Positions 12,662-23,727 of a stretch of DNA of 64,000 bases are shown in pieces (the first letter of the stretch is position 1; each line of letters begins with the position of its first letter). The stretch lies in NCBI GenBank assembly GCA_001773215.1, contig MEWB01000001.1, positions 395,052 through 459,051 on the forward strand. The letters run 5' to 3'. The notes below the pieces were generated by a model. It did not search any database. It was not told the origin of the DNA and was given only the letters and a program-made list of their open reading frames with translations. Made by a program: the position numbers and the translations under genes. Source of the stretch: a candidate division WWE3 bacterium RIFOXYC1_FULL_40_10. Lineage in GTDB: Bacteria; Patescibacteriota; WWE3; UBA101185; UBA10185.

Positions 12662-13033
12662 TCACTCCAGTGCGGTTCCGATTATAAACCATTGGTCCCA
12701 AACCCATTGGATAAGAGGGTCCAGGTCTGATTCCAAAGCTCTGTTTGGCAACCATTTCGTAGGTATACCTGCGCCTACTAGAACAACCATCCCCTCCATC
12801 TTCACTACGTATGTATCGTCGACCTGCACAACATACACATATTTAGGAGGCAAATTCTTATCACCATCTTCCTGCTCATCTGCCTTAAGATATACAAAAG
12901 GCACATAAGCTCCAGTTTGTGACAGGTAAACACCGGTTCTAAACAACGGATTTTTTTGTAACCTGGGGGTTAGGTGTATAAACCTTTGTAGAGTTTCTTC
13001 AGCCTGCTCTTGATTCCACAATTGAGTACCCAT
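12662..13033 (-). CDS. hypothetical protein (123 aa)
   Basis: Good SD on the minus strand (AAGGAGAGGACTATATG). No recognised domain. Confidence 0.55.
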   Translation of the reverse strand: MGTQLWNQEQAEETLQRFIHLTPRLQKNPLFRTGVYLSQTGAYVPFVYLKADEQEDGDKNLPPKYVYVVQVDDTYVVKMEGMVVLVGAGIPTKWLPNRALESDLDPLIQWVWDQWFIIGTALE

Positions 13034-13110
13034 ATAGTCCTCTCCTTGAAGATATAGTTCAATACTTATTGGTATTATATCTTAAATATAGCGTGGGAAC
13101 AAGTAAAGGT

Positions 13111-13131
13111 TGGTGACCCCACGGAGAATCG
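13111..13131. repeat. att-like direct repeat (copy of the tRNA-Glu 3' end)
   Basis: Exact 21/21 match to 22173-22193; flanking bases differ on both sides. Confidence 0.75.
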
Positions 13132-13386
13132 GTCACAGGTTCTCGCCTGCTGGCGATCCCTGCGACCCCGCCTCGCCGCCGTCGCGGCTCCGACTTTCGA
13201 TTCCAAGTTAGCTCATACAAAAGGAAGCATCAACCTTGTGGCTGATGCTTCCTTTCGTGGTGACCCCAAGGATATCATTTTACAACCAGTTATCTAAAGA
13301 GTTGGTAGATGTGGGAAAACTTATAGTTGATTACGATTTGGTTGGTGTGTTGAGTAACAATACTACCAGTATGGAGTGTAACTAGT

Positions 13387-13785
13387 ATGGAAAATATTGA
13401 GATTAAGCAAAAATTTGTAGAATTGAGGGCTAAAGGTAATTCCTTTCAAAAGATTGCAGATGAATTGGGTGTTACAAAACAGACACTTATTAACTGGAGT
13501 AAAGACTTGCAAACAGATATTAGAAATATGAAAGCTCTGGAATTGGATAGTCTTCTAACAAAGTACAAAATGACCCAAGAGTGCCAAATTGAATTATATG
13601 GTGAACTATTAGAAAAAATTACTGCAGAAGTTAAAAGTCGTAGCCTTCAAGACTTAAGTACAGATAAGCTTTTTAGTGCCTATTTCAAGTTATTTGAAAA
13701 TATTATGAATACTAAAAGAACAATAACACTTGAAAAAGAATCTGTTTGGGAAATAGAACCCCAAAAAACTCTCTGGACAACTTGA
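13387..13785 (+). CDS. helix-turn-helix DNA-binding protein (island-borne)
   Basis: N-terminal ELRAKGNSFQKIADELGVTKQTLINW is an HTH of the resolvase/terminase-small-subunit type. Confidence 0.5.
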   Translation: MENIEIKQKFVELRAKGNSFQKIADELGVTKQTLINWSKDLQTDIRNMKALELDSLLTKYKMTQECQIELYGELLEKITAEVKSRSLQDLSTDKLFSAYFKLFENIMNTKRTITLEKESVWEIEPQKTLWTT

Positions 13786-13835: not shown

Positions 13836-15251
13836 ATGATTACCAAAACAGACTTTTTAGTTTATCTGGAAGCTCCAAGGCACTTTTGGGCTTTGAAAAA
13901 TAACAAGTATGATTTAACAATATCCGATTTTGACAAACACTTGATTACACAGGGCTATATCGTGGAAACAAAGGCTAAAGAATACGCTAAGCGTTATTTA
14001 TTACCTAGCTATGCAACAAATGATTCTGACTTGGTTTTTCAGAGGACATGCCTAGACGGGGACTTTGAGGCTAGAACAGACATTTTAGTTAGAAATGCAA
14101 CTACTAACAAATGGGATATTTACGAGGTAAAAAGCGTAACTAAACCTAAGCCAGAGCATTACTACGACACTACATTTCAAACTATAATCTTTGAAAAGCA
14201 CATGGATATTGGCAATGTTTTCATTCTGCATGTAAACAACGACTATGTGCGAGAAGGTGATTTTGACTTGGGATTGTTCTTAGTTGCGGAAGATGTGACC
14301 CAAAAAGTGAAAGAGTTAAAAGAAGAAACGCTTAATAAGATGAAGGATTGCCAATTTCTAGTAGGTACAGACAACTATAAATTAGCTACAGAATGTTGGA
14401 AACCTAAAGAATGTCACTGTAAAGGGCTATGTTTCCCAAGTCTACCTAATGACTCAATCTATAACCTAGCACGGGTTACTGAAAAGAAAATTTTAGACCT
14501 ACGGGATAACGATATTCTAAATATAACGGACATTCCCGATGACTTTGACTTAACCACAAACCAACGAATACAGGTAGAAGTAGCCAAAAGAAATACGCCA
14601 CTAATAAATCATAAAGCTATAAAGCAAGAATTGGAAACCCTAGAGTATCCGTTATATTTCCTTGACTACGAGACCTACGACCCCGCAATCCCGATGTATG
14701 ACTGGTATAAACCGTATCAACAGATGGTTTTCCAGTACTCACTACATGTTTTAGAAAGCCCTAATAACAAAGACCTTAAACATTACGAATATGTTGTAAA
14801 AACGAAAAGCGAGCCTTGTAGGGAGCTTCTGACGCATATGAAACAGTATATTGGAAATACAGGTAGCGTGATTGTTTGGTACAAGGCTTTTGAGTGTTCA
14901 CGAAACAGAGAAATGGGACAAATCTGTATGGATTTTGCTGAATTTTTAGAAAATGTAAATGGTAGAGTTTATGACCTTATGGATATATTTAAAAACAATC
15001 TCTATGTTGACCCCAAATTCAAAGGCAGTAACTCAATTAAAGATGTATTACCCGTTTTAGTTCCAGAGCTAAACTATAAAAACCTAAATATACAAAATGG
15101 CACAATGGCAATGACTAACTGGCATAAGATGGTTTATAAAATTACGAACCAGAAGGAAAAAGACGAACTGCTTAAAAACTTGCTAACTTATTGTGAACAG
15201 GACACATTAGCTATGGTTAGAATATGGGATTTTTTAAGGCAACTGGCTTGA
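13836..15251 (+). CDS. two-domain nuclease-like protein: N-terminal PD-(D/E)xK, C-terminal DEDD/RNase-H-like exonuclease-like (DUF2779-like)
   Basis: PD-(D/E)xK-like TDILVRNATTNKWDIYEVKSV (D..E-x-K). C-terminal YFLDYETYDPAIP resembles a DnaQ-type Exo I D-x-E motif. The domain naming is inference from motifs only. Confidence 0.5.
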   Translation: MITKTDFLVYLEAPRHFWALKNNKYDLTISDFDKHLITQGYIVETKAKEYAKRYLLPSYATNDSDLVFQRTCLDGDFEARTDILVRNATTNKWDIYEVKSVTKPKPEHYYDTTFQTIIFEKHMDIGNVFILHVNNDYVREGDFDLGLFLVAEDVTQKVKELKEETLNKMKDCQFLVGTDNYKLATECWKPKECHCKGLCFPSLPNDSIYNLARVTEKKILDLRDNDILNITDIPDDFDLTTNQRIQVEVAKRNTPLINHKAIKQELETLEYPLYFLDYETYDPAIPMYDWYKPYQQMVFQYSLHVLESPNNKDLKHYEYVVKTKSEPCRELLTHMKQYIGNTGSVIVWYKAFECSRNREMGQICMDFAEFLENVNGRVYDLMDIFKNNLYVDPKFKGSNSIKDVLPVLVPELNYKNLNIQNGTMAMTNWHKMVYKITNQKEKDELLKNLLTYCEQDTLAMVRIWDFLRQLA

Positions 15252-15362: not shown

Positions 15363-16184
15363 ATGATTACAAGTAATCTAACTAAAAAACAACTTGAAAA
15401 CTCCTTGTTTGAAGGCGATTGTCTAAAAGTCATGTCTAAATTTCCAGATAAAAGTATAGATATGATTTTGTGCGATTTGCCATATGGCACAACGCAAAAC
15501 AAGTGGGATAGTGTAATTCCATTAGCTGCTTTGTGGAAGGAGTACGAGAGGATTATAAAAGATAACGGGGTAATAGCATTGACCTCTCAAGGTGTATTTA
15601 CAGCGTCGTTAATCATGAGCAACACAGCACTATTTAAGTATAAATTAACATGGGTTAAATCTAAGGCTACAAATTTTTTGAACGCTAAGATACAGCCTTT
15701 GAGAAAACACGAAGATATTTGTATCTTTTATAGAAATCACAAGTACAAACCAACATACCACCCGCAGATGACATTTGGAGAACCGTACGATAAAGGACAC
15801 AGAAAAAACCAACAAACTAGTAGTTACGGTGAATTTAACTCAATAGAGGTAAAAAGCGATGGAGAAAGATACCCAACAGATGTCGTTTATTTTAAAACCG
15901 CTGAAAGCGAAGGTGAGGTTTTCCACCCAACACAAAAACCGATTGAACTTGGAAGATATTTAGTTAAAACATATACTAACAAGGGTGAACTGGTATTAGA
16001 CAATACTTTTGGAAGCGGTAGTTTTTTAATCGCTACTGCCTTAGAAGATAGAAAGTTTGTTGGAGTTGAAATAAATCAGGAGGTTTTATTGCACAAGGAA
16101 AAAAAAGTTGATTTAATGCACATAGCAGAAAGCCGCATTAGGAAATTTCTACCTAAAATAGACATACCTATATACAAAATATGA
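15363..16184 (+). CDS. beta-class N6-adenine/N4-cytosine DNA methyltransferase
   Basis: Motif IV DLPYG precedes motif I (FGSGS), which is the beta-class order; FHPTQKP is also present. Confidence 0.85.
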   Translation: MITSNLTKKQLENSLFEGDCLKVMSKFPDKSIDMILCDLPYGTTQNKWDSVIPLAALWKEYERIIKDNGVIALTSQGVFTASLIMSNTALFKYKLTWVKSKATNFLNAKIQPLRKHEDICIFYRNHKYKPTYHPQMTFGEPYDKGHRKNQQTSSYGEFNSIEVKSDGERYPTDVVYFKTAESEGEVFHPTQKPIELGRYLVKTYTNKGELVLDNTFGSGSFLIATALEDRKFVGVEINQEVLLHKEKKVDLMHIAESRIRKFLPKIDIPIYKI

Positions 16185-18931
16185 CCACAATAAATTACAA
16201 TGAACGAAGCTGGGCAATTGATATTATATCCGAAATTAACATTTGGCTATCCAGTAGAAATATAATAATAAAAAGAGCTGGTGGTGAGAACACACTAATG
16301 GAAGGCACTAAATCTTTGTTTCCTGATGTATTGCTATTTGGAGATCTGGACAAAGGTAAAATTCTACAAGGGTGGGAGTTGAAAATGCCAGATACTCCCC
16401 TAGAAGATGCGGATTTTATAGCAAATGCAAAGGCTAAAGCTAAATTACTTTCTCTCAATAGTTTTTTGTTGTGGAATGTATCAGAAGCTGTCTTATATAA
16501 AATTGAGGATAGCGGCAGTCTTACGCAAGTTAAATCTTGGAACAATTTAAGTCATTTAAAACTTAGAGGTGAGGTACTTCAGCATAAAGATGCAATAAAA
16601 CTTATGTTGGTTGAAATACTGAATGATATAAATAGCTTTATTCTTGGTGGAACTATTAAAACGGTATCTGTTGTTACTGCCTTGAGTAGTGAAACAGTTT
16701 CGTGGCTAATACATAATAACTTAAGCTCGTATGTTGAAGCTTTAAAAAATAATGCTGTAGCTAATCATGGTTTTTCAGACGAAATTACTCTATGGTGGCG
16801 ATACGCCAAAAACGACTACCCCGAAGAACAAGATAAATTTGTTGTTCTGGGAAGAAATAACCTACTTTTCTTAATTAACAAGTTCATATTTGCACATATT
16901 TTGAAATCCTACCAAGTAGAAGCAAATTCAATTGATAATATAAACTCTAGTACTGATGTTGAGACGGCACTTGCCACATTTGACCATATTTCTGAAAAAT
17001 GTGATTTTTGGAACATATTCCAACGACAAACAGGTGAGGAGCTAGTCACTCCTGAAGTTTGGCAAGATATAGTAAGTTTTAACGCCTTGTTAAAAGAGTT
17101 TAATTTCGCAAAAATTGAAAAGAACCTTCTTCATGATCTACTTGGTGCAACGATTTACAAGAATAAAAGAAAATTTGCTGGGCAATTTACAACGCCACAG
17201 GAATTGGCAAGGTTTATTGTACGGCTTACCATTAAAGACAAAAATCTACATGCGATTGACCCCTGTTGTGGTACTGGAACTATAGTGAAAGAAATCTATA
17301 AGTATAAAAAAACACAAATAACTGTAAAGGAAAGTCTGGCTACATTGTGGGCATCAGATAAGTTCTCCCTTCCTCTACAGATGGCAATGTTTAACCTAGC
17401 TGAACCAGAGGCGTTAGGTTTCGTATTAAAAGTTTTCAAGGAAGATGCAACTAAACTTGAAGTAGATAAAGAAATCACGCTTCATGAACCTTTTAAAGGT
17501 ACAGCAATAATTGAGAAGTTACCAAAGTTTGGTTACATTATTTCCAATCTGCCGTTTGTTCAACAGGAAGATATTGAAGTCCTAAACCCAAATGTTGTAG
17601 AAATCAACAGGTTCATTCAAGACAAGCTAGGGGAGGGGTTTCTACTTGACGGAAGGAGTGACTTATATGCTTATTTTCCTTTTCATTTCTGGAAATTATT
17701 AGATACAGACGGAAAAATGTCTATTATCGTTTCAAACTCATGGCTGGGTACAGCTTGGGGTAAGAAATTTTATACAGCATTATCCGCTTTTTTTGAAATA
17801 GAAAATATAATAACATCAGGTAATGGTCGTTGGTTTGATAATGCCAAAGTCGTTACAAATATAATCACTTTGAGAAAGAAAAATTTTCCGTCACTACCAA
17901 ATGCAAACGAGATAATTAAATTTACAACAACTAAAAAAGCACTAACAAGCTATAATCCTGAAGAAATTGAAGAAATATCAGCAATTGTTTCCACAGCGGA
18001 ATCATTCAATGAAAGCGACTTGTCGGTGTATGCGTATACACACGAAAAACTAAATAAAGTTCTGTCTCTAGGACTAAATTTAAACAGTTTTTTTGCAAAT
18101 AATGACTGGCTTTTAGAACTAAGTAGCAAACTAATTAAGGTTTCAGAATTATTTGATATAGGCAGAGGTGAAAGGCGAGGCTGGGATAAGCTATTCTACC
18201 CCGATACAACTAATGGAATTGAGCAGGTATATCTACAACCTGTTTTAAAGACACCTAGGTCGGTTCATACACTAGGTGCAAAGCCAGATGCGTTAGCATT
18301 TTGTTGTGATAAAACGAAGGAGGAGTTGGAGCTTCTTGGGCATACAGGTGCCCTGTCATGGATAAATAAGTTTGAACATCAGGAAAATGAGAGGGGTATT
18401 CCATTAACTACAGCATTAGCGAGAAGCGGTACAAATTGGTATACCATGTCACCGACTACTATGGCGGAAATGGTGACTAGTATTAACTTTGGGGATAGGC
18501 TTTTCTTTGCTAAATTTCAAAAGCCAACCTTTGTGAACCAAAGACTTGTAAGATTTAGCAAAAAATCTGGAGATATTGATGATGACTTATGTCATTCATT
18601 ATTAAATAGCATTGTTGGGCAGTTTTACATTGAAGCTATGGGAACTGGTAGAGGAGAGGGGGCTTTGGACTTGAGCAAAGACAAAATAAAAGCTGACCTA
18701 AGAATCATTAACCCAAAGTTATTTACTGGGGATAAAAGAGATAAAATAATGACTCTGTTTGGAAAATTGATGGAAAGAGAAGTTTTACCTTTAAAGCAAG
18801 AGCTTGAAATGGACGATAGAGTAGACTTTGACAATGCAGTACTTGAGGCTATCGGCTTTCCTTTATACAGGGAACGCATAAAAACTGCTCTACTCACACT
18901 TTATAATATAAGGGCTTCCGTTAACGGCTAA
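16181..18931 (+). CDS. MmeI-like Type IIG/IIL restriction-modification enzyme (nuclease + gamma-class N6A methyltransferase + target-recognition domain fusion)
   Basis: 916 aa. N-terminal D..E-L-K (PDVLLFGDLDKGKILQGWELK). Central motif I FTTPQELARFIV..IDPCCGTG and motif IV ISNLPF. Overlaps the upstream methyltransferase by ATGA. Confidence 0.7.
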   Translation: MTTINYNERSWAIDIISEINIWLSSRNIIIKRAGGENTLMEGTKSLFPDVLLFGDLDKGKILQGWELKMPDTPLEDADFIANAKAKAKLLSLNSFLLWNVSEAVLYKIEDSGSLTQVKSWNNLSHLKLRGEVLQHKDAIKLMLVEILNDINSFILGGTIKTVSVVTALSSETVSWLIHNNLSSYVEALKNNAVANHGFSDEITLWWRYAKNDYPEEQDKFVVLGRNNLLFLINKFIFAHILKSYQVEANSIDNINSSTDVETALATFDHISEKCDFWNIFQRQTGEELVTPEVWQDIVSFNALLKEFNFAKIEKNLLHDLLGATIYKNKRKFAGQFTTPQELARFIVRLTIKDKNLHAIDPCCGTGTIVKEIYKYKKTQITVKESLATLWASDKFSLPLQMAMFNLAEPEALGFVLKVFKEDATKLEVDKEITLHEPFKGTAIIEKLPKFGYIISNLPFVQQEDIEVLNPNVVEINRFIQDKLGEGFLLDGRSDLYAYFPFHFWKLLDTDGKMSIIVSNSWLGTAWGKKFYTALSAFFEIENIITSGNGRWFDNAKVVTNIITLRKKNFPSLPNANEIIKFTTTKKALTSYNPEEIEEISAIVSTAESFNESDLSVYAYTHEKLNKVLSLGLNLNSFFANNDWLLELSSKLIKVSELFDIGRGERRGWDKLFYPDTTNGIEQVYLQPVLKTPRSVHTLGAKPDALAFCCDKTKEELELLGHTGALSWINKFEHQENERGIPLTTALARSGTNWYTMSPTTMAEMVTSINFGDRLFFAKFQKPTFVNQRLVRFSKKSGDIDDDLCHSLLNSIVGQFYIEAMGTGRGEGALDLSKDKIKADLRIINPKLFTGDKRDKIMTLFGKLMEREVLPLKQELEMDDRVDFDNAVLEAIGFPLYRERIKTALLTLYNIRASVNG

Positions 18932-19231: not shown

Positions 19232-19651
19232 ATGAATGACTTAATAATTAGCAATTATGAAGAACGCAACAAACAGCTATTAGAGGACTGTATATCTATT
19301 TGGGTTGAACACGACTTTCAATCGCGCTGGTTTCGTGTAAAAGGATACCATGAATTGGGCAAAAGACTTTTAGAAGAACCAAAGGAATATGGGGATAGGT
19401 TTGTGCCATTGGTGGCAGAATCTTTGGGTAAAAGTGAACGAACAATATACAGGACTATTGAATTTGCACGAGCATTTCCTGATTTAGATTTACTTCCCGA
19501 AGGTAAAAATATTAGCTGGTACAAGATAATTCAAAAATATCTCCCATTAGAAACAAGATGTATAGGAGACGCTATGCTAGTGTATATATGTCCCAACTGT
19601 AATTCCGAACACAAAAAATCAGATATAAAGTTCATAAGAAAGAATATATAG
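19232..19651 (+). CDS. hypothetical protein with C-terminal CxxC zinc-ribbon (island-borne)
   Basis: CPNCNSEHK; GKSERTIYRTIEFARAF is possibly HTH-like. A TATAAT lies 10 nt upstream. Confidence 0.45.
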   Translation: MNDLIISNYEERNKQLLEDCISIWVEHDFQSRWFRVKGYHELGKRLLEEPKEYGDRFVPLVAESLGKSERTIYRTIEFARAFPDLDLLPEGKNISWYKIIQKYLPLETRCIGDAMLVYICPNCNSEHKKSDIKFIRKNI

Positions 19652-19652
19652 A

Positions 19653-20456
19653 ATGTTTCGGTTACCAGAAGCAGAGGAAATAAATCTATTAGATGCTAAG
19701 GCTAGAATTAACTTTGATTCCATAATCAACACAAGAAAGTACACCGTTAAAGACTCTACAATGACTTACCGTCAAGCTAATTCTATGGCGAGTGATAATA
19801 TGCTTCCCGAAGACAAAGATAGGGATAATGGGTGGAGAAAGTTCAGTCTCAAGGAGTTAATTTACATTGAATTGGTCTTATCACTAAAGAAGTTGGGACT
19901 AAAACACAGTCAACTTAGAAATGTTTGGGACTCTTTTTTCAATCCGTATGATGACGCAAAAAAGGAAAAACGATTATGGAGAGAAATTAGTGATGATGTG
20001 ATTGCGTTAGTAATGGGTCACATAGACATGATTTTAACAATAACTGCAGGTGGGGAGGTTTCCTATATACACCCTGTTTTTTTTACTAGGGAATATCCAA
20101 CTGAAGAGCCATTTGTTTTTGTTAGTATGAGCGATACCGTTAATAAAGTAGCTAAAAGAATTGGTAAAGAAGGGTTTACACCAAAAGCAACATTAGATAG
20201 CATTTATCACATCTTAACAACCAAAGAAGAAAAGGCATTAGCCCTTATAAGAAACGGCGAGTTTAGAACAATAAAGTTAACAAAAAAGGATGGGGAAATA
20301 GAGTTAATCCATGCAGAGCAGATGAATAAATCCGATAATATTACAATTAAAGCAATTGAGGAAGTCATCTCAACAGGTAAATACCAAAAAATTACTATTA
20401 CTCAAAAAGATGGAAAATTAGTCAACCTTACACAAGAAGTTATGATGAAAGTCTAA
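19653..20456 (+). CDS. hypothetical protein (267 aa, island-borne)
   Basis: Follows the previous ORF with 1-nt spacing. No recognised motif. Confidence 0.45.
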   Translation: MFRLPEAEEINLLDAKARINFDSIINTRKYTVKDSTMTYRQANSMASDNMLPEDKDRDNGWRKFSLKELIYIELVLSLKKLGLKHSQLRNVWDSFFNPYDDAKKEKRLWREISDDVIALVMGHIDMILTITAGGEVSYIHPVFFTREYPTEEPFVFVSMSDTVNKVAKRIGKEGFTPKATLDSIYHILTTKEEKALALIRNGEFRTIKLTKKDGEIELIHAEQMNKSDNITIKAIEEVISTGKYQKITITQKDGKLVNLTQEVMMKV

Positions 20457-20549: not shown

Positions 20550-20714
20550 ATGAGTGCAGAAAAAGAAAAGTTAGCTAAAATTGCTCAATCTATAGAAAGG
20601 AAGACTAGTATTAAAGATAAAGAAAAGATATTAGGAATAGCACAGGCTGTAGATGACTTCGCTGGTCTAATTCTACAAAGCTATTTAGCAGGAAAGGCAT
20701 TAAAGAAAAAATGA
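20550..20714 (+). CDS. small ORF (54 aa) translationally coupled to the recombinase gene; candidate recombination accessory/directionality factor
   Basis: Own translation MSAEKEKLAKIAQSIERKTSIKDKEKILGIAQAVDDFAGLILQSYLAGKALKKK. Its stop TGA overlaps the recombinase ATG (ATGA). Confidence 0.25.
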   Translation: MSAEKEKLAKIAQSIERKTSIKDKEKILGIAQAVDDFAGLILQSYLAGKALKKK

Positions 20715-22213
20715 AAGCAATAATTTATTGTAGGGTATCTACACAGGAACAAGTTAATGAGGGCAACAGTCTTTTAACACAAGAAAGGCTTTGTAGGCAG
20801 TATGGAAAAAATAATGGCTACGAGATTGACAAGGTTTTCGTTGAGGAAGGTGAAAGTGCTAAAACCATATACAGAACATCCCTCAAGAACATGATGAAAT
20901 ATTGTACTTTAACGGAAGGTAAAATTGATGCTGTGTTGATTTATAGAATTGATAGGCTTTCAAGAGAAACTGCAGACTATATAGCCTTAAAGGTTTTTTT
21001 TAATAAATTAGGGATTAAAGTGATATCTACCAGCGAACCAATTGAAGATACACCTACAGGTAGGTTTTTAGAAACTGTTCTCGCAAGTAGTGCTCAAATG
21101 GATAATGAGATAAGAGGAGAACGAAGTAAAAACGGTATGATAGACCGTCTAAAACAAGGAAGATGGATGTTTTATGCACCTTTAGGTTATAGGACAGAGG
21201 GAGCAAAAGGTGCCTCAAATATAGAACCTGTAGAACCCATAGCAGGTTATATAAACAGGGTTTTTATGGCACTATCCTCTGGGTATATAACGGTAGAAGA
21301 GGTGCGAAGGGACTCCGCAAAATGGGGACTTGTAACAAACAGAGGTAAAGCACTTAGCATTTCAATGTTTCATAAAATGATTAGAAACCCGATTTATAAG
21401 GGGTACTTAGATGTCCCTAGCATGGGGATTTATCAAAAAGGCAGTTTTAAGGCTATTGTAGATGAAAAAGTATTTGACCAAGTTCAGTATATTTTAGAAA
21501 GCAAAAAGAAGAAAATGCCTATATATAGAAAATTAAACCCTGACTTTCCTTTAAGGGGTGCATTGAAATGTAGCAAATGTGGAAAATTACTAACAGCGAG
21601 TTGGGCAAAGCAAAGAACCATAGGTCACTACAGGTGTTCAGTATGTACCAATGTGAACCTAAACAAAAAGGTTTTGGAAAATACATTTAGTGAATACCTT
21701 AAGTCAATAGTTTGGAACCAAATAACAGTTGAAGTTGTAAAAGAAGCATTGTTATTAAATTGGCAATCGCACAAAAAAGAATACGAAAAAGAACTAGCTA
21801 AAATTGCGAAGCAACAAATTGAAATAAGAGAGTTAATGGATAAAGTTGTTGATAAAAACATGAGGGGTGTTTACAGTGACTCGCTAGCAAAAACTAAACT
21901 AAATGATTATGAAAGGAACCTCGCCGAATTGCGTTTAGAGACCCAGAAATATGCTTCTCCAGATGTTATGGAGGCAGATTTACTTAACTACAGCGTTGAC
22001 TTCATGCGTAATATAACTGGTATGTGGGATAAATTGGATATAGAACCAAAGCATAGGTTGCATAAAATGTTATTTCCTGATGGTATCGTTTATTTGAATG
22101 GGATATTTACAACCCCTGTTAAATCCTGTCTTATAGAGCTAAACGATCTAGTATGTGTTGAAAATTCTACTATGGTGACCCCACGGAGAATCGAACTCCG
22201 GTTGCCGGGATGA
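20711..22213 (+). CDS. large serine recombinase (resolvase-domain integrase)
   Basis: N-terminal catalytic context IIYCRVSTQEQ and resolvase-domain motifs (LIYRIDRLSR, SAQMDNEIRGERSKNG). Downstream recombinase domain and zinc ribbon CSKCGKLL..YRCSVC. The last 13 codons are encoded within the tRNA-Glu sequence. Confidence 0.9.
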   Translation: MKAIIYCRVSTQEQVNEGNSLLTQERLCRQYGKNNGYEIDKVFVEEGESAKTIYRTSLKNMMKYCTLTEGKIDAVLIYRIDRLSRETADYIALKVFFNKLGIKVISTSEPIEDTPTGRFLETVLASSAQMDNEIRGERSKNGMIDRLKQGRWMFYAPLGYRTEGAKGASNIEPVEPIAGYINRVFMALSSGYITVEEVRRDSAKWGLVTNRGKALSISMFHKMIRNPIYKGYLDVPSMGIYQKGSFKAIVDEKVFDQVQYILESKKKKMPIYRKLNPDFPLRGALKCSKCGKLLTASWAKQRTIGHYRCSVCTNVNLNKKVLENTFSEYLKSIVWNQITVEVVKEALLLNWQSHKKEYEKELAKIAKQQIEIRELMDKVVDKNMRGVYSDSLAKTKLNDYERNLAELRLETQKYASPDVMEADLLNYSVDFMRNITGMWDKLDIEPKHRLHKMLFPDGIVYLNGIFTTPVKSCLIELNDLVCVENSTMVTPRRIELRLPG

Positions 22214-22247
22214 AAACCCGGCGTCCTAACCGTTAGACGATGGGGCC
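22173..22247 (-). tRNA. tRNA-Glu (anticodon TTC)
   Basis: Minus-strand GGCCCCATCGTCTAACGGTTAGGACGCCGGGTTTTCATCCCGGCAACCGGAGTTCGATTCTCCGTGGGGTCACCA. Acceptor 7 bp with one G-U pair, anticodon loop TTTTCAT, TTCGATT T-loop, CCA encoded. Confidence 0.9.
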
Positions 22248-22302
22248 ACGACCTCGCCATTTTATCAGTAAATACACCTATCAGCAATATTTGGTAAAAT
22301 GA

Positions 22303-23727
22303 TTGCATTCTATGAATATCCTGGAAAAAATTATTATTTATTTCACCTCGGTGATCTTAACTCTATCCCCTACCCCTAAATATACAGAGGGTATAGTAGG
22401 CCAACCTCAGAATTTCTTGCCAAGCCAAGCGCAAACACCTAACGATCGAACAATTTCCAGGATGATTTTTAGAGGCCTGTTTAAATACGATAACTACGGA
22501 GCCCTTCAGCCGGATTTAGCAGATACTTGGTCAATTTCCCCGGATGGATTGGTTTATACCATAAAATTAAAAGAGAATAATTTTTGGACAAACGGCAAGA
22601 GAATTACCTCAGATGACTTAATCTATACATCATTTAAGGTTAACGACCTCTCGGGAGTGGCAACCGACAAAGTAGACGAGCTAACAGTTCGGTATACACT
22701 TCCAAATAGATACGCCCCATTTTTAAACTTGATGACTGTTGGAATAATGCCCTCCCAGTCTGAAGAAAAGGTAGACCCTATATTTCCGGTCTCCAGTGGC
22801 CCCTTTAGAGTAATTTCCGTTGAGAAAGTAGGGGGTTTAGTTAAGAAAGTGACATTGCATAATTCTGAAACTAACCTAAGAAAACTGGTGTTTAGATATT
22901 ATAAAACCGAAGATGATCTGAATTTGGCTATTAAGCTGGCAGAGATCGATGGATACACATCAGAGGCTGAAAACCCAAATGAGAATTTTGAGGATCACAA
23001 GTTCCCACTTCAAGGAGTATATTATGCATTGTTTTTTAACCAAAGAAATGAAAAATTTCAGGATCCGGCACTTAGAATAAATATCGCAAAAGCACTTAAC
23101 ACAAATCACGTTATTGGTAATAAAGGAATTCCCGTAGAAGGGCCTATTAGCCGCAGTGCTTTTACAAGCAGTAAGCTAAAGTTTAATATTTATGACGAAA
23201 ACTTTTCAATAGACATGAGTACGAAAGACTTTAAGTTAACTATCCCCGACTTACCCATACATAGGGATAGCGCTCAGCTAATTAAGTCTCTACTAAAGGA
23301 TAAACTGGGGATCAAAGTTGAGATTATTGCAGTACAGCCGGAAAATTTCATCAAGGAAATCGTGGAACCTAGAAATTTTGAGGTTCTCCTTTATGGCCAG
23401 GAAGTATCTAGAGATCCGGATAGGTATGTTTTATGGCATTCTGAACAAAAAGACCCGCCGGGTTTAAACATAACCGGATTTAAGCACGTAAGAGCCGACC
23501 GCGCTTTGGAAGAAGGCCGTAAGGAACTAGAAACCTCAAAGCGTACGTTACATTACGAAGAATTCGAACGAGTGTTTTCCGAACAGGTACCCGCGATATT
23601 TTTATACCATCCTTTTGTACACCACTATGTAACATCTCATATAAAGGGCATCGGAGAGAAATATACCTACACGTATGTGGATAGGTTCTTAGATTTTTAT
23701 AACTGGACCAGGCTTGATACGAATTAG
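22303..23727 (+). CDS. ABC-transporter solute-binding protein, family 5 (peptide/nickel-binding-like)
   Basis: Signal/TM start, then the NFLPSQAQTPNDRTISRMIFRGLFKYD..LQPDLADTWSISPDGLVYTIKLK pattern typical of SBP_bac_5. Confidence 0.65.
   Translation: MHSMNILEKIIIYFTSVILTLSPTPKYTEGIVGQPQNFLPSQAQTPNDRTISRMIFRGLFKYDNYGALQPDLADTWSISPDGLVYTIKLKENNFWTNGKRITSDDLIYTSFKVNDLSGVATDKVDELTVRYTLPNRYAPFLNLMTVGIMPSQSEEKVDPIFPVSSGPFRVISVEKVGGLVKKVTLHNSETNLRKLVFRYYKTEDDLNLAIKLAEIDGYTSEAENPNENFEDHKFPLQGVYYALFFNQRNEKFQDPALRINIAKALNTNHVIGNKGIPVEGPISRSAFTSSKLKFNIYDENFSIDMSTKDFKLTIPDLPIHRDSAQLIKSLLKDKLGIKVEIIAVQPENFIKEIVEPRNFEVLLYGQEVSRDPDRYVLWHSEQKDPPGLNITGFKHVRADRALEEGRKELETSKRTLHYEEFERVFSEQVPAIFLYHPFVHHYVTSHIKGIGEKYTYTYVDRFLDFYNWTRLDTN

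What the first reader, a model, noticed from the sequence alone, without database searches (positions are those of the whole stretch)
13836..15251. Island-borne protein combining a PD-(D/E)xK nuclease motif with a DEDD/RNase-H-like exonuclease-like C-terminal domain
The N-terminal region has TDILV..(15 aa)..YEVKS, a D..E-x-K arrangement. The C-terminal half begins YFLDYETYDPAIP, a D-x-E as in DnaQ-type Exo I. It resembles the DUF2779 architecture as I recall it. The gene sits directly upstream of the methyltransferase and the Type IIG enzyme in the same operon-like array. A dual-nuclease protein here could be an additional defence effector (RM-linked or Cas4-like) rather than a housekeeping nuclease.
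Basis: inference. Interest (0 to 1): 0.6.

Follow-up and report, generated by a model that had tools for sequence, protein, structure and literature searches.

The report
Two-nuclease DUF2779 protein on RM island
A protein that joins a Cas4-like nuclease to a proofreading-type exonuclease is encoded on a small mobile island beside a restriction-modification system in a candidate-phyla bacterium; the family is already described but never tested, and its frequent position near DNA-cutting defence genes makes it a plausible, unproven helper nuclease.

Summary
ORF 13836-15251 (+) encodes a 471-aa DUF2779 protein (Pfam 4e-38). It matches a hypothetical protein of a candidate division WWE3 genome exactly. 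The AlphaFold model (pLDDT 95.5) and Foldseek show an N-terminal Cas4/RecB-type PD-(D/E)xK nuclease and a C-terminal DEDDy 3'-5' exonuclease. Both catalytic sets are conserved in homologues down to 33% identity. The gene is island-borne. A 21-nt exact copy of the tRNA-Glu 3' end (13111 and 22173) brackets a 9.1-kb low-GC element. The element holds an HTH gene, DUF2779, a complete Type IIG RM system with extra methylase, and a large serine recombinase. Six of seven close relatives (≥65% identity) have an RM system next door, of four different kinds. Across 43 more distant loci with full flanks, 17 have RM genes within 5 kb. But there is no fixed partner, orientation varies, and PADLOC has no match. 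Other Patescibacteria keep the gene beside dnaG-rpoD, and Acidobacteria beside tsaD. The two-nuclease architecture was already published (2014, 2026). This is a new member of a known, uncharacterised family. The best reading is an autonomous DNA-end-processing nuclease that often travels with DNA-cleaving defence systems. A defence role is plausible but unproven.

The parts
13836..15251 (+). DUF2779-family two-nuclease protein, 471 aa (the finding)
   Evidence: ORF. Pfam PF11074 E=4e-38. 100% identical to P0001, a hypothetical protein of a candidate division WWE3 bacterium. AF2 pLDDT 95.5, pTM 0.89.
13836..14435 (+). N-terminal Cas4/RecB-type PD-(D/E)xK nuclease domain (about aa 1-200): D82 (14079), E97 (14124), K99 (14130), Q115 (14178)
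   Evidence: Foldseek PDB top hits are Cas4 (8D3L_I E=1.3e-4, 4IC1, 4R5Q, 7MI4), then MGME1, RecE and ACE1. The residues are invariant in A1 and at least 90% conserved in A4. The domain boundaries are approximate, taken from the DSSP of the model.
14394..14432 (+). Cys cluster C187-x5-C193-x-C195-x3-C199 at the C-terminal edge of the PD-(D/E)xK domain; candidate metal or Fe-S site
   Evidence: C187, C193 and C199 are invariant and C195 is at least 90% conserved in A1. Only C187 and C193 are at least 90% conserved family-wide. Metal binding is inferred, not shown.
14448..14645 (+). Three-helix linker between the two nuclease domains (about aa 205-270), unassigned
   Evidence: DSSP helices 216-224, 241-252 and 259-267 in the model. 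No Pfam match.
14649..15248 (+). C-terminal DEDDy-type 3'-5' exonuclease (RNase H-like) domain: D277 (14664), E279 (14670), E353 (14892), D380 (14973), Y452 (15189), D456 (15201)
   Evidence: Pfam DUF2779 on residues 274-400, and RNase_H_2 sub-threshold on 297-465. Foldseek hits to 3'hExo, RNase T, ExoI, Orn and PolB exonuclease domains. All six residues are invariant in A1 and A4.
13111..13141 (.). attL-like copy of the tRNA-Glu 3' end (21 nt exact, 31 nt at 87%); a further 15-nt partial copy at 13258-13272
   Evidence: the repeat finder families D4 and D6; sequences read.
22173..22247 (-). tRNA-Glu(UUC); its 3' end (22173-22203) is the attR-like repeat, overlapped by the end of the recombinase ORF
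   Evidence: ARAGORN; Rfam tRNA 61 bits; repeat D6.
13387..13785 (+). Small HTH protein (132 aa), first gene of the island, 50 nt upstream of DUF2779
   Evidence: Pfam HTH_23 E=1.8e-5; PHROG transcriptional regulator, weak.
15363..16184 (+). Stand-alone N6/N4 DNA methyltransferase (273 aa)
   Evidence: Pfam N6_N4_Mtase 2.4e-23; PADLOC MTase_II 1.3e-67.
16181..18931 (+). Type IIG restriction enzyme-methyltransferase (916 aa); its start overlaps the methylase stop by 4 nt
   Evidence: PADLOC REase_MTase_IIG, 1013.7 bits, residues 1-915 of the protein on 1-932 of 935 profile positions; Pfam N6_Mtase and Eco57I.
19232..20456 (+). Two island ORFs of unknown function (139 aa at 19232-19651; 267 aa at 19653-20456)
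   Evidence: No hit in Pfam, NCBIfam, PADLOC or PHROGs.
20711..22213 (+). Large serine recombinase/integrase (500 aa) at the right end of the island
   Evidence: Pfam Resolvase, Recombinase and Zn_ribbon_recom; PHROG 95 integrase 1.9e-82; NCBIfam XisF/Ccr-like, sub-threshold.

Best explanation
The ORF encodes a member of the DUF2779 family. It is a single polypeptide with an N-terminal Cas4/RecB-type PD-(D/E)xK nuclease carrying a small Cys cluster, a three-helix linker, and a C-terminal DEDDy 3'-5' exonuclease. Shown here: both folds, conservation of both active sites, and the gene's position as cargo of a 9.1-kb island. The island is integrated at tRNA-Glu by a serine recombinase and also carries a complete Type IIG RM system. 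Inferred: the enzyme works on its own, without a helicase or a fixed partner. It acts on free DNA ends, with the Cas4-like domain attacking the 5' strand or single-stranded flaps and the DEDDy domain trimming the 3' strand. Together they would shorten or destroy linear DNA from its ends. Most likely role on this island (inferred, about one chance in three): it finishes off the linear fragments that the neighbouring restriction enzyme makes from invading DNA. That would play the part RecBCD or AddAB plays after restriction in other bacteria, and could also release nucleotides. It is an autonomous accessory, not a subunit of the RM system.
For: Family and fold: Pfam DUF2779 at 130.9 bits; AF2 pLDDT 95.5. 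Foldseek matches Cas4, MGME1, RecE and ACE1 for the N-terminal half, and 3'hExo, RNase T, ExoI and PolB exonuclease for the C-terminal half. Active sites: D82/E97/K99/Q115 and D277/E279/E353/D380/Y452/D456 are conserved. Autonomy: no recurrent partner cluster in 83 loci. Most of the 150 best 50%-cluster representatives listed (of 6,788 matching clusters) match over nearly the whole query in one stretch. Island: att repeats, tRNA-Glu, recombinase and a GC drop. The RM system is complete without it: a full-length Type IIG enzyme plus a separate methylase. Association with DNA-cleaving defence: the window clade has swapped RM cargo in 6 of 7 loci, namely Type IIG twice, another Type IIG/L, and Type III three times, once with Mrr. 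Distant homologues sit beside Shedu with Type I RM, beside BREX with GmrSD, and beside MmeI-type IIG enzymes. RM-family ORFs cover 3-10% of the bases within 10 kb, and 17 of 43 full-flank loci have RM within 5 kb. The plasmid copies examined lie near other nucleases, helicases or ATPases, or toxin-antitoxin genes. Precedents from the literature: the Cas4-family enzyme ACE1 boosts Argonaute interference (PMC12094033), and solo-Cas4 lies next to RM in DPANN genomes (PMC5704561).
Against: No biochemical or genetic data exist for any DUF2779 protein. No PADLOC model matches. The gap to the RM genes is 111 nt, and there is no evidence for or against co-transcription. In relatives the RM can be convergent. 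RM density is not highest right next to the gene (2.9% at 0-2 kb against 9.5% at 4-6 kb), which suggests shared island residence rather than a two-gene module. More than half of the distant loci show no RM with my HMMs. Some lineages keep the gene in core contexts: rpoC-dnaG-rpoD-DUF2779, or next to tsaD. A family member is quasi-essential in JCVI-syn3.0 (PMC13621843), and a Mycoplasma bovis transposon insertion in a DUF2779 gene is listed together with insertions in DNA replication, repair and nanoRNase genes (PMC7373297). Both point to a general DNA-metabolism role. The background RM density was not measured here. The enrichment estimate rests on general expectation (about 1% of a genome or less).
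Confidence: 0.5

Rival explanations
1. It is a housekeeping DNA repair or recombination nuclease of small-genome bacteria, functionally replacing RecBCD/AddAB end processing. It merely happens to lie in, or be carried by, variable regions. Its neighbourhood with RM has no functional meaning.
For: Core-like synteny of rpoC-dnaG-rpoD-DUF2779 in Paceibacterota, Saccharibacteria and Dojkabacteria, and tsaD neighbours in Acidobacteria. MutL, UvrB and UvrC lie near the gene in L005. The family is quasi-essential in JCVI-syn3.0 (PMC13621843). No PADLOC hit, and no fixed partner.
Against: In the window the gene lies inside the att-bracketed island and shares its low GC. Homology to L002 stops exactly at the gene borders, and both flanks differ, so this copy is mobile and not core. 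RM, recombinase and other defence genes are much more frequent around it than I would expect for a random core gene. Copies in the two kinds of context interleave on the tree.
Confidence: 0.3
2. It is a nucleotide-scavenging nuclease. Patescibacteria and mycoplasmas depend on salvage, and the enzyme would degrade imported or restricted DNA to mononucleotides, with RM systems providing the first cuts.
For: Two exonuclease activities of opposite polarity are predicted. The family is concentrated in small-genome lineages. The published suggestion that epibionts use RM systems to source nucleotides is reported in PMC12455944. A DUF2779 transposon mutant is listed with nanoRNase and phosphodiesterase mutants in M. 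bovis (PMC7373297).
Against: The family also occurs in large-genome Chloroflexota, Acidobacteriota, Bacteroidota and Planctomycetota, which are not known to depend on salvage. No competence or transporter genes appeared among the neighbour families that were annotated. There is no direct evidence.
Confidence: 0.1
3. It is a backbone function of the integrative element itself, for example processing or protecting the excised element or promoting recombination, rather than a host-benefit gene.
For: In the window clade, DUF2779 lies on one side and a conserved backbone on the other side of a variable RM slot. The backbone is ~390 aa, ~320 aa, DUF5659 and, where the contig extends far enough, a tyrosine integrase and a serine recombinase. 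Serine-recombinase/tRNA islands enclosing DUF2779 recur in L052 and L057, and the recombinase overlaps or abuts a tRNA in L010, L032, L036, L038 and L051. Recombinase density rises with distance, as expected for the far end of an island.
Against: The gene is essentially absent from phages (no PHROG; 6 partial hits in 50,697 records) and rare on plasmids (31 of 72,556). Many copies have no recombinase nearby. The window island has a different backbone from the L002-type islands. Core-context copies exist.
Confidence: 0.08
4. It is a bona fide Cas4 acting in CRISPR spacer acquisition, or it is the nuclease subunit of the neighbouring RM system.
For: Its fold is closest to Cas4, and it is adjacent to RM genes.
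Against: The window has no CRISPR repeat family or tandem array, and the island ORFs include no cas genes. The protein has no Pfam Cas4/DUF83 hit at E ≤ 0.01. The Type IIG enzyme matches its PADLOC model over its whole length, so the system looks complete without a further nuclease. RM types differ between close relatives while DUF2779 stays the same.
Confidence: 0.02

Closest known systems
DUF2779 / PF11074 family (e.g. MMSYN1_0389 of JCVI-syn3.0; RNase H-like clade F.17 of Majorek et al. 2014)
   Same: It passes the Pfam threshold. It has the same two-domain layout, with a Cas4-like/DUF83 PD-(D/E)xK domain followed by a DEDD-type exonuclease with Tyr in the Exo III motif. The same catalytic residues are conserved (PMC3985635; PMC13621843).
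   Different: This protein is much shorter than the Mycoplasma UU173-type proteins (471 aa against a 650-position NCBIfam profile, scoring 82.6 bits against a cut-off of 225). Its clade has four clustered cysteines, whereas MMSYN1_0389 has two (PMC13621843). This copy is carried on a tRNA-integrated island with RM cargo, a context not described in those papers.
Cas4 (SSO0001 4IC1, Pcal_0546 4R5Q, type I-C Cas4 8D3L) and solo-Cas4
   Same: Cas4 gives the best structural matches for residues ~1-200. The protein has the D...ExK and Q-x3-aromatic motifs. Like solo-Cas4, it is common in CPR genomes and is sometimes next to RM (PMC5704561).
   Different: There is no sequence-level hit to Cas4 Pfam models or to PDB sequences. 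It lacks the canonical pattern of one N-terminal and three C-terminal Fe-S cysteines. There are no cas genes or CRISPR array nearby. It carries an additional DEDDy exonuclease domain.
TM0106 / TIGR03491 / COG2251 'RecB-like putative nuclease' (PF13482 RNase_H_2 clade F.13)
   Same: It has the same kind of fusion, a PD-(D/E)xK nuclease plus an RNase H-like exonuclease. A weak full-length HMM match covers residues 75-467 (E=6.8e-7). The two are neighbouring clades in PMC3985635.
   Different: It scores 28.6 bits against a cut-off of 97.45, so it is not a member. COG2251 proteins often carry AAA domains (PMC3985635), which are absent here.
ACE1, the Argonaute-associated Cas4-family enzyme (9IAB/9IAC)
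   Same: ACE1 is a Cas4-family nuclease encoded beside a DNA-cleaving defence protein, and it boosts interference (PMC12094033). It is a structural match. It is the best functional precedent for an accessory role.
   Different: ACE1 forms a fixed heterodimer with its pAgo partner and has no DEDD domain. DUF2779 has no fixed partner.
AddAB / RecBCD end-processing machines
   Same: They use two nuclease activities with opposite strand polarity on DNA ends, with an AddB-type or Cas4-type PD-(D/E)xK domain. They act after restriction cleavage. This is established knowledge for RecBCD, not tested here.
   Different: This protein has no helicase or translocase domain. Its second nuclease is DEDD-type rather than a second RecB-type domain. 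It is a single 471-aa chain.
DEDDh/DEDDy exonucleases (RNase T, 3'hExo, ExoI, MrfB, PolB proofreading domains)
   Same: It shares the fold and the Exo I (D-x-E) and Exo III (Y-x3-D) motifs.
   Different: The Exo II position carries Glu (N/Y-K-x-F-E353), and there is a further invariant D380. The match to PF13482 is only sub-threshold (17.6 bits against 22). The domain is fused to a PD-(D/E)xK nuclease.

Membership tests
DUF2779 (Pfam PF11074) | Match to the family HMM above the gathering score | tested here: met
   130.9 bits against a cut-off of 23.3, covering profile positions 1-126 of 126 on residues 274-400. Homologues carry the same precomputed domain.
DUF2779 (Pfam PF11074) | Two-domain architecture: N-terminal PD-(D/E)xK (DUF83-like) plus C-terminal RNase H-like exonuclease, as described in PMC3985635 and PMC13621843 | tested here: met
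   AF2 model and Foldseek. Most of the 150 best 50%-cluster representatives listed cover nearly the whole query in one stretch.
PD-(D/E)xK nucleases of the Cas4/RecB type | Catalytic D ... E-x-K plus a Q-x3-(Y/F) motif, conserved in homologues | tested here: met
   D82, E97, K99 and Q115 (followed by F119) are invariant in A1 and at least 90% conserved in A4.
PD-(D/E)xK nucleases of the Cas4/RecB type | Fold similarity to solved Cas4/RecB-family structures | tested here: met
   Foldseek: 8D3L_I E=1.3e-4, 4IC1, 4R5Q (TM 0.57 on the target), MGME1, RecE.
Cas4 proper (Pfam DUF83/Cas_Cas4; CRISPR adaptation) | Sequence match to Cas4 models or to solved Cas4 sequences | tested here: not met
   No Cas4/DUF83 family at E ≤ 0.01 in Pfam or NCBIfam. 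No PDB sequence hit with the protein or with the profile at E ≤ 10.
Cas4 proper (Pfam DUF83/Cas_Cas4; CRISPR adaptation) | Four Fe-S cysteines arranged as one N-terminal Cys plus a C-terminal C-x2-C-x5-C | tested here: not met
   There is no conserved N-terminal Cys. Instead the protein has C187-x5-C193-x-C195-x3-C199, and only C187 and C193 are conserved family-wide.
Cas4 proper (Pfam DUF83/Cas_Cas4; CRISPR adaptation) | Linkage to cas1/cas2 and a CRISPR array | tested here: not met
   No CRISPR repeat family (Rfam) or array in 64 kb, and no cas domain among the island ORFs. ORFs outside 7-24 kb were not scanned for cas genes.
DEDD (DnaQ-like) 3'-5' exonucleases | Exo I D-x-E, an Exo II acidic residue, and Exo III (Y/H)-x3-D, all conserved | tested here: met
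   D277-x-E279; F352-E353 at the Exo II position (Glu instead of Asp) plus invariant D380; Y452-x3-D456. All are invariant in A1 and A4.
DEDD (DnaQ-like) 3'-5' exonucleases | RNase H-like fold similar to solved DEDD enzymes | tested here: met
   Foldseek hits to 3'hExo, RNase T (3V9X, prob 0.97), ExoI, Orn and PolB exonuclease, with weaker E-values of 0.02-0.09. Pfam RNase_H_2 scores 17.6 bits, below its cut-off of 22.
TM0106 family RecB-like nuclease (TIGR03491) | HMM score above the curated cut-off | tested here: not met
   28.6 bits against 97.45.
UU173 family (NF045869) | HMM score above the curated cut-off | tested here: not met
   82.6 bits against 225; only the C-terminal 273 residues align.
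Known anti-phage defence systems (PADLOC-DB 2.0) | Match to any defence-protein model | tested here: not met
   0 families at E ≤ 0.01.
Restriction-modification system component | Conserved co-occurrence and co-orientation with one RM type; required for a complete system | tested here: not met
   RM types and orientations differ among close relatives. The Type IIG enzyme matches its PADLOC model over its full length, and a separate methylase is present.
Any of the above | Nuclease activity, substrate and polarity | not testable with these tools
   This needs biochemistry. No experimental study of a DUF2779 protein was found in the searchable library.

The most novel reading that the evidence does not exclude
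DUF2779 proteins are a widespread, unrecognised class of autonomous 'clean-up' nucleases. They cooperate with many different DNA-cleaving defence systems (Type I, IIG and III RM, BREX, Shedu, helicase-nucleases) by degrading the linear fragments those systems create. In lineages such as Patescibacteria, which may lack RecBCD/AddAB (not checked here), they would supply the post-restriction degradation function, and possibly nucleotide recycling. For that reason they would be co-mobilised with swappable RM cassettes on serine-recombinase islands integrated at tRNA genes.
Probability: 0.2. Interest if true: 0.7.

Novelty: new member of a known kind. Interest (0 to 1): 0.4.

Why it matters
DUF2779 is a large family (about 6,800 clusters at 50% identity) with no experimentally assigned function. 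It is quasi-essential in the minimal Mycoplasma cell and common in candidate-phyla bacteria. If the link to RM and other DNA-cleaving defence systems is functional, it would identify a generic accessory step of immunity in bacteria that may lack RecBCD/AddAB. That step is destruction or recycling of cleaved foreign DNA. It would also give the family a testable role. The island seen here is compact (9 kb): a regulator, DUF2779, a Type IIG RM system and a serine integrase targeting a tRNA gene. It could be moved into a model host for such a test. If the link is only positional, the result is still useful. It would show that a core-like nuclease gene repeatedly becomes island cargo in Patescibacteria.

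Tried and rejected
1. Sequence searches of PDB chains with the protein and with a 48-sequence profile found nothing at E ≤ 10. Only fold comparison links it to solved structures.
2. PADLOC and PHROGs gave no match for the protein.
3. I looked for an obligate partner gene by clustering 1,144 neighbour ORFs from 83 non-redundant loci (88 held). None was found. The most frequent neighbour clusters are recombinases (14 loci) and various methylases (7-9 loci each).
4. I rejected the idea that the DUF2779 gene is the integration target or the anchor outside the island. The att repeats enclose it, and its GC matches the island.
5. Operon status is inconclusive. The promoter and terminator scans give counts at chance level (36 against 32.6 expected; 4 against 5.1).
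6. An empty-site search in metagenomes, using a 37-nt junction of the left flank with intact tRNA-Glu, gave 0 hits.
7. Rfam on the GC-rich stretch next to attL (12900-13450) found nothing credible.
9. I rejected a single 'defence' clade against a 'housekeeping' clade. Context is phylogenetically clustered, but the two kinds interleave.
10. The model coordinates could not be read in the sandbox. The geometry of the Cys cluster and the relative orientation of the two active sites were therefore not measured.
Full report
**1. What is there**

The ORF at 13836..15251 (+) is real: ATG start, 471 aa. Its product is 100% identical to a hypothetical protein of candidate division WWE3 bacterium RIFOXYC1_FULL_40_10, so the window comes from a Patescibacteria (CPR) genome.

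Pfam places residues 274-400 in DUF2779 (PF11074, E=4.1e-38, 130.9 bits against a cut-off of 23.3). A sub-threshold RNase_H_2 match covers residues 297-465. NCBIfam gives only sub-threshold matches to the UU173 family and to the TM0106 'RecB-like putative nuclease' family. PADLOC and PHROGs give nothing.

TDILV...YEVKS occupies residues 81-100 (D82, E97, K99). LYFLDYETYDPAIP occupies residues 273-286 (D277, E279).

**2. Are the motifs meaningful?**

I tested conservation at two depths:
- In 48 homologues at 42-100% identity, D82, E97, K99, Q115, D277, E279, E353, D380, Y452 and D456 are all invariant. So are C187, C193 and C199, and C195 is at least 90% conserved.
- In 77 cluster representatives at 33-45% identity, the six DEDD-type residues remain invariant. 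D82, E97, K99, Q115, C187 and C193 are at least 90% conserved.

The Exo II position reads N/Y-K-x-F-E353, with Glu rather than Asp. Exo III is Y452-x3-D456, the DEDDy subtype.

An AlphaFold2 model built on the 48-sequence alignment is very confident (mean pLDDT 95.5, pTM 0.89). Foldseek against the PDB splits it into two halves:
- The N-terminal half matches Cas4 (8D3L_I at E=1.3e-4, 4IC1, 4R5Q, 7MI4). It also matches MGME1, RecE and the Argonaute-associated Cas4-family enzyme ACE1.
- The C-terminal half matches DEDDh enzymes (3'hExo, RNase T, ExoI, Orn) and PolB proofreading domains.

No PDB entry covers both halves (TM on the query is at most 0.28). No PDB sequence is detectable by HMMER.

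**3. Already described**

The architecture is not new:
- Majorek et al. 2014 placed PF11074 in the 3'-5' exonuclease clade of the RNase H-like superfamily. They noted its co-occurrence with DUF83, a PD-(D/E)xK domain (PMC3985635).
- A 2026 analysis of JCVI-syn3.0 described the quasi-essential DUF2779 protein MMSYN1_0389 as a Cas4-like nuclease fused to a DEDD nuclease with Tyr in place of His (PMC13621843).
- I found no experimental characterisation of any member.

The family is large: 6,788 clusters at 50% identity with E ≤ 1e-3, and 1,925 with E ≤ 1e-30. Most of the 150 best hits listed match in one stretch over nearly the whole query.

**4. The island**

tRNA-Glu lies at 22173-22247 on the minus strand. 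Its 3' end is repeated in direct orientation at 13111-13141. The first 21 nt are exact and the full 31 nt are 87% identical. About 2e-5 exact 21-nt repeats are expected by chance in this region. A third partial copy lies at 13258-13272.

All genes between the repeats are on the + strand:
- an HTH protein (13387-13785)
- DUF2779 (13836-15251)
- an N6/N4 methylase (15363-16184)
- a full-length Type IIG enzyme (16181-18931; PADLOC 1013 bits)
- two ORFs with no match in any library (19232-20456)
- a 500-aa large serine recombinase (20711-22213), whose 3' end runs into the tRNA

Island GC is 35.2% against 40.5% for the rest of the window, and the DUF2779 gene is at 35.9%. The gene is therefore inside a 9.1-kb tRNA-integrated element and is not a flanking core gene. 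No empty site was found in metagenomes.

**5. The window's own clade**

| Locus | Identity to window protein | What lies next to DUF2779 |
|---|---|---|
| Window | 100% | N6/N4 methylase + Type IIG |
| P0007 (L004) | 75% | the same methylase + Type IIG block |
| P0003 | 79% | a different Type IIG/L-like enzyme |
| P0005 (L002) | 74% | convergent Type III Mod/Res |
| P0009 | 72% | convergent Type III Mod/Res |
| P0012 | 65% | Mrr + Type III |
| P0010 | 66% | no RM on the visible side; upstream side cut by the contig end |

Further points from these comparisons:
- Window and L004 share a colinear block at similar divergence (74.5%, 74.5% and 67.8% aa identity). The three genes have therefore travelled together there.
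- Against L002, DNA homology starts and stops at the borders of the DUF2779 gene.
- In P0003, P0005, P0009 and P0012, the RM slot is followed by a conserved backbone (~390 aa, ~320 aa, DUF5659).
- P0003 and P0005 extend far enough to show a tyrosine integrase and a serine recombinase after that backbone.

In this clade, DUF2779 is a constant gene next to a swappable RM slot of an integrative element.

**6. The wider family**

I fetched 80 loci from species-representative genomes. The query alignment covers 34-50% identity, and the loci span Patescibacteria, Chloroflexota, Acidobacteriota, Bacteroidota, Planctomycetota, Gammaproteobacteria and Bacilli. I added four further distant homologues chosen because they sit on long contigs (P0021, P0060, P0090, P0114). 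I called ORFs myself with a crude greedy method.

*Partners.* Clustering the neighbours gave no recurrent partner.

*RM and recombinase counts.* I built HMMs from six labelled clusters, which gives a lower bound:
- An RM component lies within 10 kb in 20 of 81 loci that are at most 50% identical to the window protein.
- An RM component lies within 5 kb in 17 of the 43 loci with at least 5 kb on both sides.
- A large serine recombinase is present in 13 of 81 loci.

*Distance profile.* RM-family ORFs cover 2.9, 7.7, 9.5, 5.6 and 4.8% of the bases in successive 2-kb shells. Recombinase coverage rises steadily from 0.2% to 4.9%. This is the pattern expected for co-residence in islands of about 10 kb with the recombinase at the far end. 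It is not the pattern of a tight two-gene module.

*Pfam counts.* Among the two nearest ORFs on each side, the leading families are N6_Mtase, Eco57I, ResIII and N6_N4_Mtase. Among ORFs at least 6.5 kb away, Resolvase and Recombinase lead.

*Individual contexts.*
- Shedu plus Type I RM (L006).
- BREX plus GmrSD plus AbiEii (L007).
- MmeI-type IIG enzymes (L036, L038).
- HsdR, YgjP, then DUF2779 (L066).
- 1,500-aa SF1 helicase-REase proteins.
- Conjugation genes (L010).
- On plasmids: OLD-type and PD-(D/E)xK nucleases with a WYL protein, a DEAD helicase with an ATPase and a PLD nuclease, and toxin-antitoxin modules.

I did not measure a genomic background. From general knowledge, RM genes occupy roughly 1% of a genome or less. 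The enrichment is therefore probably several-fold, but that figure is an estimate.

**7. Counter-evidence**

- In Paceibacterota (L046, L063) and Saccharibacteria (L048), the gene directly follows rpoC, dnaG and rpoD. In Dojkabacteria (L011, the closest species-representative at 50% identity) it directly follows an rpoD-like sigma-70 gene.
- In four Acidobacteria it neighbours tsaD.
- On a neighbour-joining tree of 84 copies, 32 are labelled mobile or defence and 9 are labelled core. None carries both labels.
- The mobile label is clustered: 24 of 32 have a like-labelled nearest neighbour, against 11.7 ± 3.2 in permutations. This partly reflects shared descent.
- Core-context copies nevertheless interleave with island copies inside Patescibacteria.
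- The gene is essentially absent from phages and rare on plasmids.
- Together with quasi-essentiality in JCVI-syn3.0 (PMC13621843), this argues for an activity that is useful on its own in DNA metabolism.

**8. Recurrent island design**

- The recombinase ORF overlaps a tRNA gene in L010 (Leu), L032 (Ile), L036 (Glu), L038 (Phe), L052 (Asn) and L057 (Gly). In L051 it lies 97 bp from tRNA-Glu.
- In L052 a 20-nt repeat of the tRNA 3' end lies beyond DUF2779, and in L057 a 16-nt repeat does.
- The gene is therefore inside islands of about 13.5 kb and 16 kb there.

The window's island is one instance of a repeated Patescibacteria design.

**9. Mechanism**

Shown: two nuclease folds with intact and conserved active sites, no helicase domain, no fixed partner, and island cargo next to a complete RM system.

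Inferred: a metal-dependent enzyme that attacks free DNA ends with both polarities. Cas4-family enzymes are 5'-3' exonucleases or ssDNA endonucleases (PMC5704561, PMC12094033). DEDD enzymes are 3'-5' exonucleases. On this island the substrate most readily available is the linear DNA produced by the Type IIG enzyme.

I therefore favour an autonomous accessory that degrades restricted DNA and possibly recycles it. ACE1 with Argonaute is the closest precedent (PMC12094033), and RecBCD after restriction is the functional analogy. PMC12455944 reports the published suggestion that epibionts use RM systems to source nucleotides.

My confidence:
- about 0.9 that it is an active two-nuclease DNA enzyme
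- about 0.3-0.35 that it has a defence-accessory role
- about 0.3 that it is a general repair or recombination nuclease whose neighbourhood is incidental

**10. Verdict**

The protein is a new member of a known, computationally described but experimentally untouched family. It is not a member of Cas4 proper, TM0106, UU173 or any PADLOC system.

The added value here is the context:
- genuine island carriage
- swapped RM cargo in close relatives
- a facultative but marked association with DNA-cleaving defence genes across phyla
- core-type locations in other lineages

Interest is moderate.

Noticed in passing
window 13132-13272: Between the attL-like repeat and the first island gene lies a GC-rich stretch of about 85 nt, unusual for a 40% GC genome. 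It is followed by a 19-nt-arm hairpin (13217-13258) and a second, partial copy of the tRNA-Glu 3' end (13258-13272). This may be the scar of an earlier integration or a degenerate tRNA-like remnant. ARAGORN and Rfam find nothing there.
   Followed up: partly
window 20711-22247; also L010, L032, L036, L038, L052, L057: The 3' end of the large serine recombinase ORF overlaps the tRNA gene that serves as the integration site. The same arrangement recurs with six different tRNA species in other Patescibacteria loci. This suggests a family of tRNA-targeting serine integrases whose coding sequence crosses the att site.
   Followed up: partly
window 19232-19651 and 19653-20456: Two adjacent island ORFs (139 and 267 aa) have no match in Pfam, NCBIfam, PADLOC or PHROGs. 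A 54-aa ORF (20550-20714) overlaps the recombinase start and could be a directionality factor.
   Followed up: no
L002 16172-19320; L094 8482-10903; L095 7850-9590; P0003 locus: A conserved island backbone follows the variable RM slot in WWE3-type islands. It consists of proteins of ~390 aa and ~320 aa with no Pfam match, DUF5659, and two small ORFs where visible. In P0003 and L002 a tyrosine integrase and a serine recombasinase-type gene (large serine recombinase) follow. L002 has a second integrase-recombinase pair upstream, which suggests tandem elements.
   Followed up: no
L046 3061-9979, L048 3355-9965, L063 21-4569, L011 8633-9979: In several Patescibacteria the DUF2779 gene directly follows rpoC-dnaG-rpoD, that is, the macromolecular-synthesis operon. 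In L011 only the sigma-70 gene was identified. This is a core-genome position that contrasts with the island position in the window.
   Followed up: partly
L005 7199-7684, L008 6829-7302, L002 5987-6445, L093 2866-3384: A NUDIX hydrolase gene lies close to DUF2779 in four otherwise unrelated loci. In two of them it is divergently transcribed just upstream.
   Followed up: no
BFVD hits A0A3G4ZWN9, A0A5K0U8I2, A0A5J6VIM9: Three giant-virus proteins (Faunusvirus, Yasminevirus and a Megaviridae environmental sample) match the model over both domains (TM 0.64-0.66), whereas phage proteins match only the PD-(D/E)xK half. The two-nuclease architecture therefore also exists in nucleocytoplasmic large DNA viruses.
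   Followed up: no
L033 215-4822, L052 5241-9971, L072, L013, L088, L074: SF1 helicases of about 1,500 aa (AAA_11/AAA_12) with a C-terminal MTES_1575/DUF559 endonuclease domain recur near DUF2779. In L033 and L052 they lie directly upstream on the same strand. They may be a candidate functional partner in those lineages.
   Followed up: no
L004 17662-19315 versus window 22173-23727: The tRNA-Glu and SBP_bac_5 gene pair is inverted relative to the DUF2779-methylase-Type IIG block in the related genome L004, and no recombinase is seen there. This suggests rearrangement or decay of the island in that lineage.
   Followed up: no
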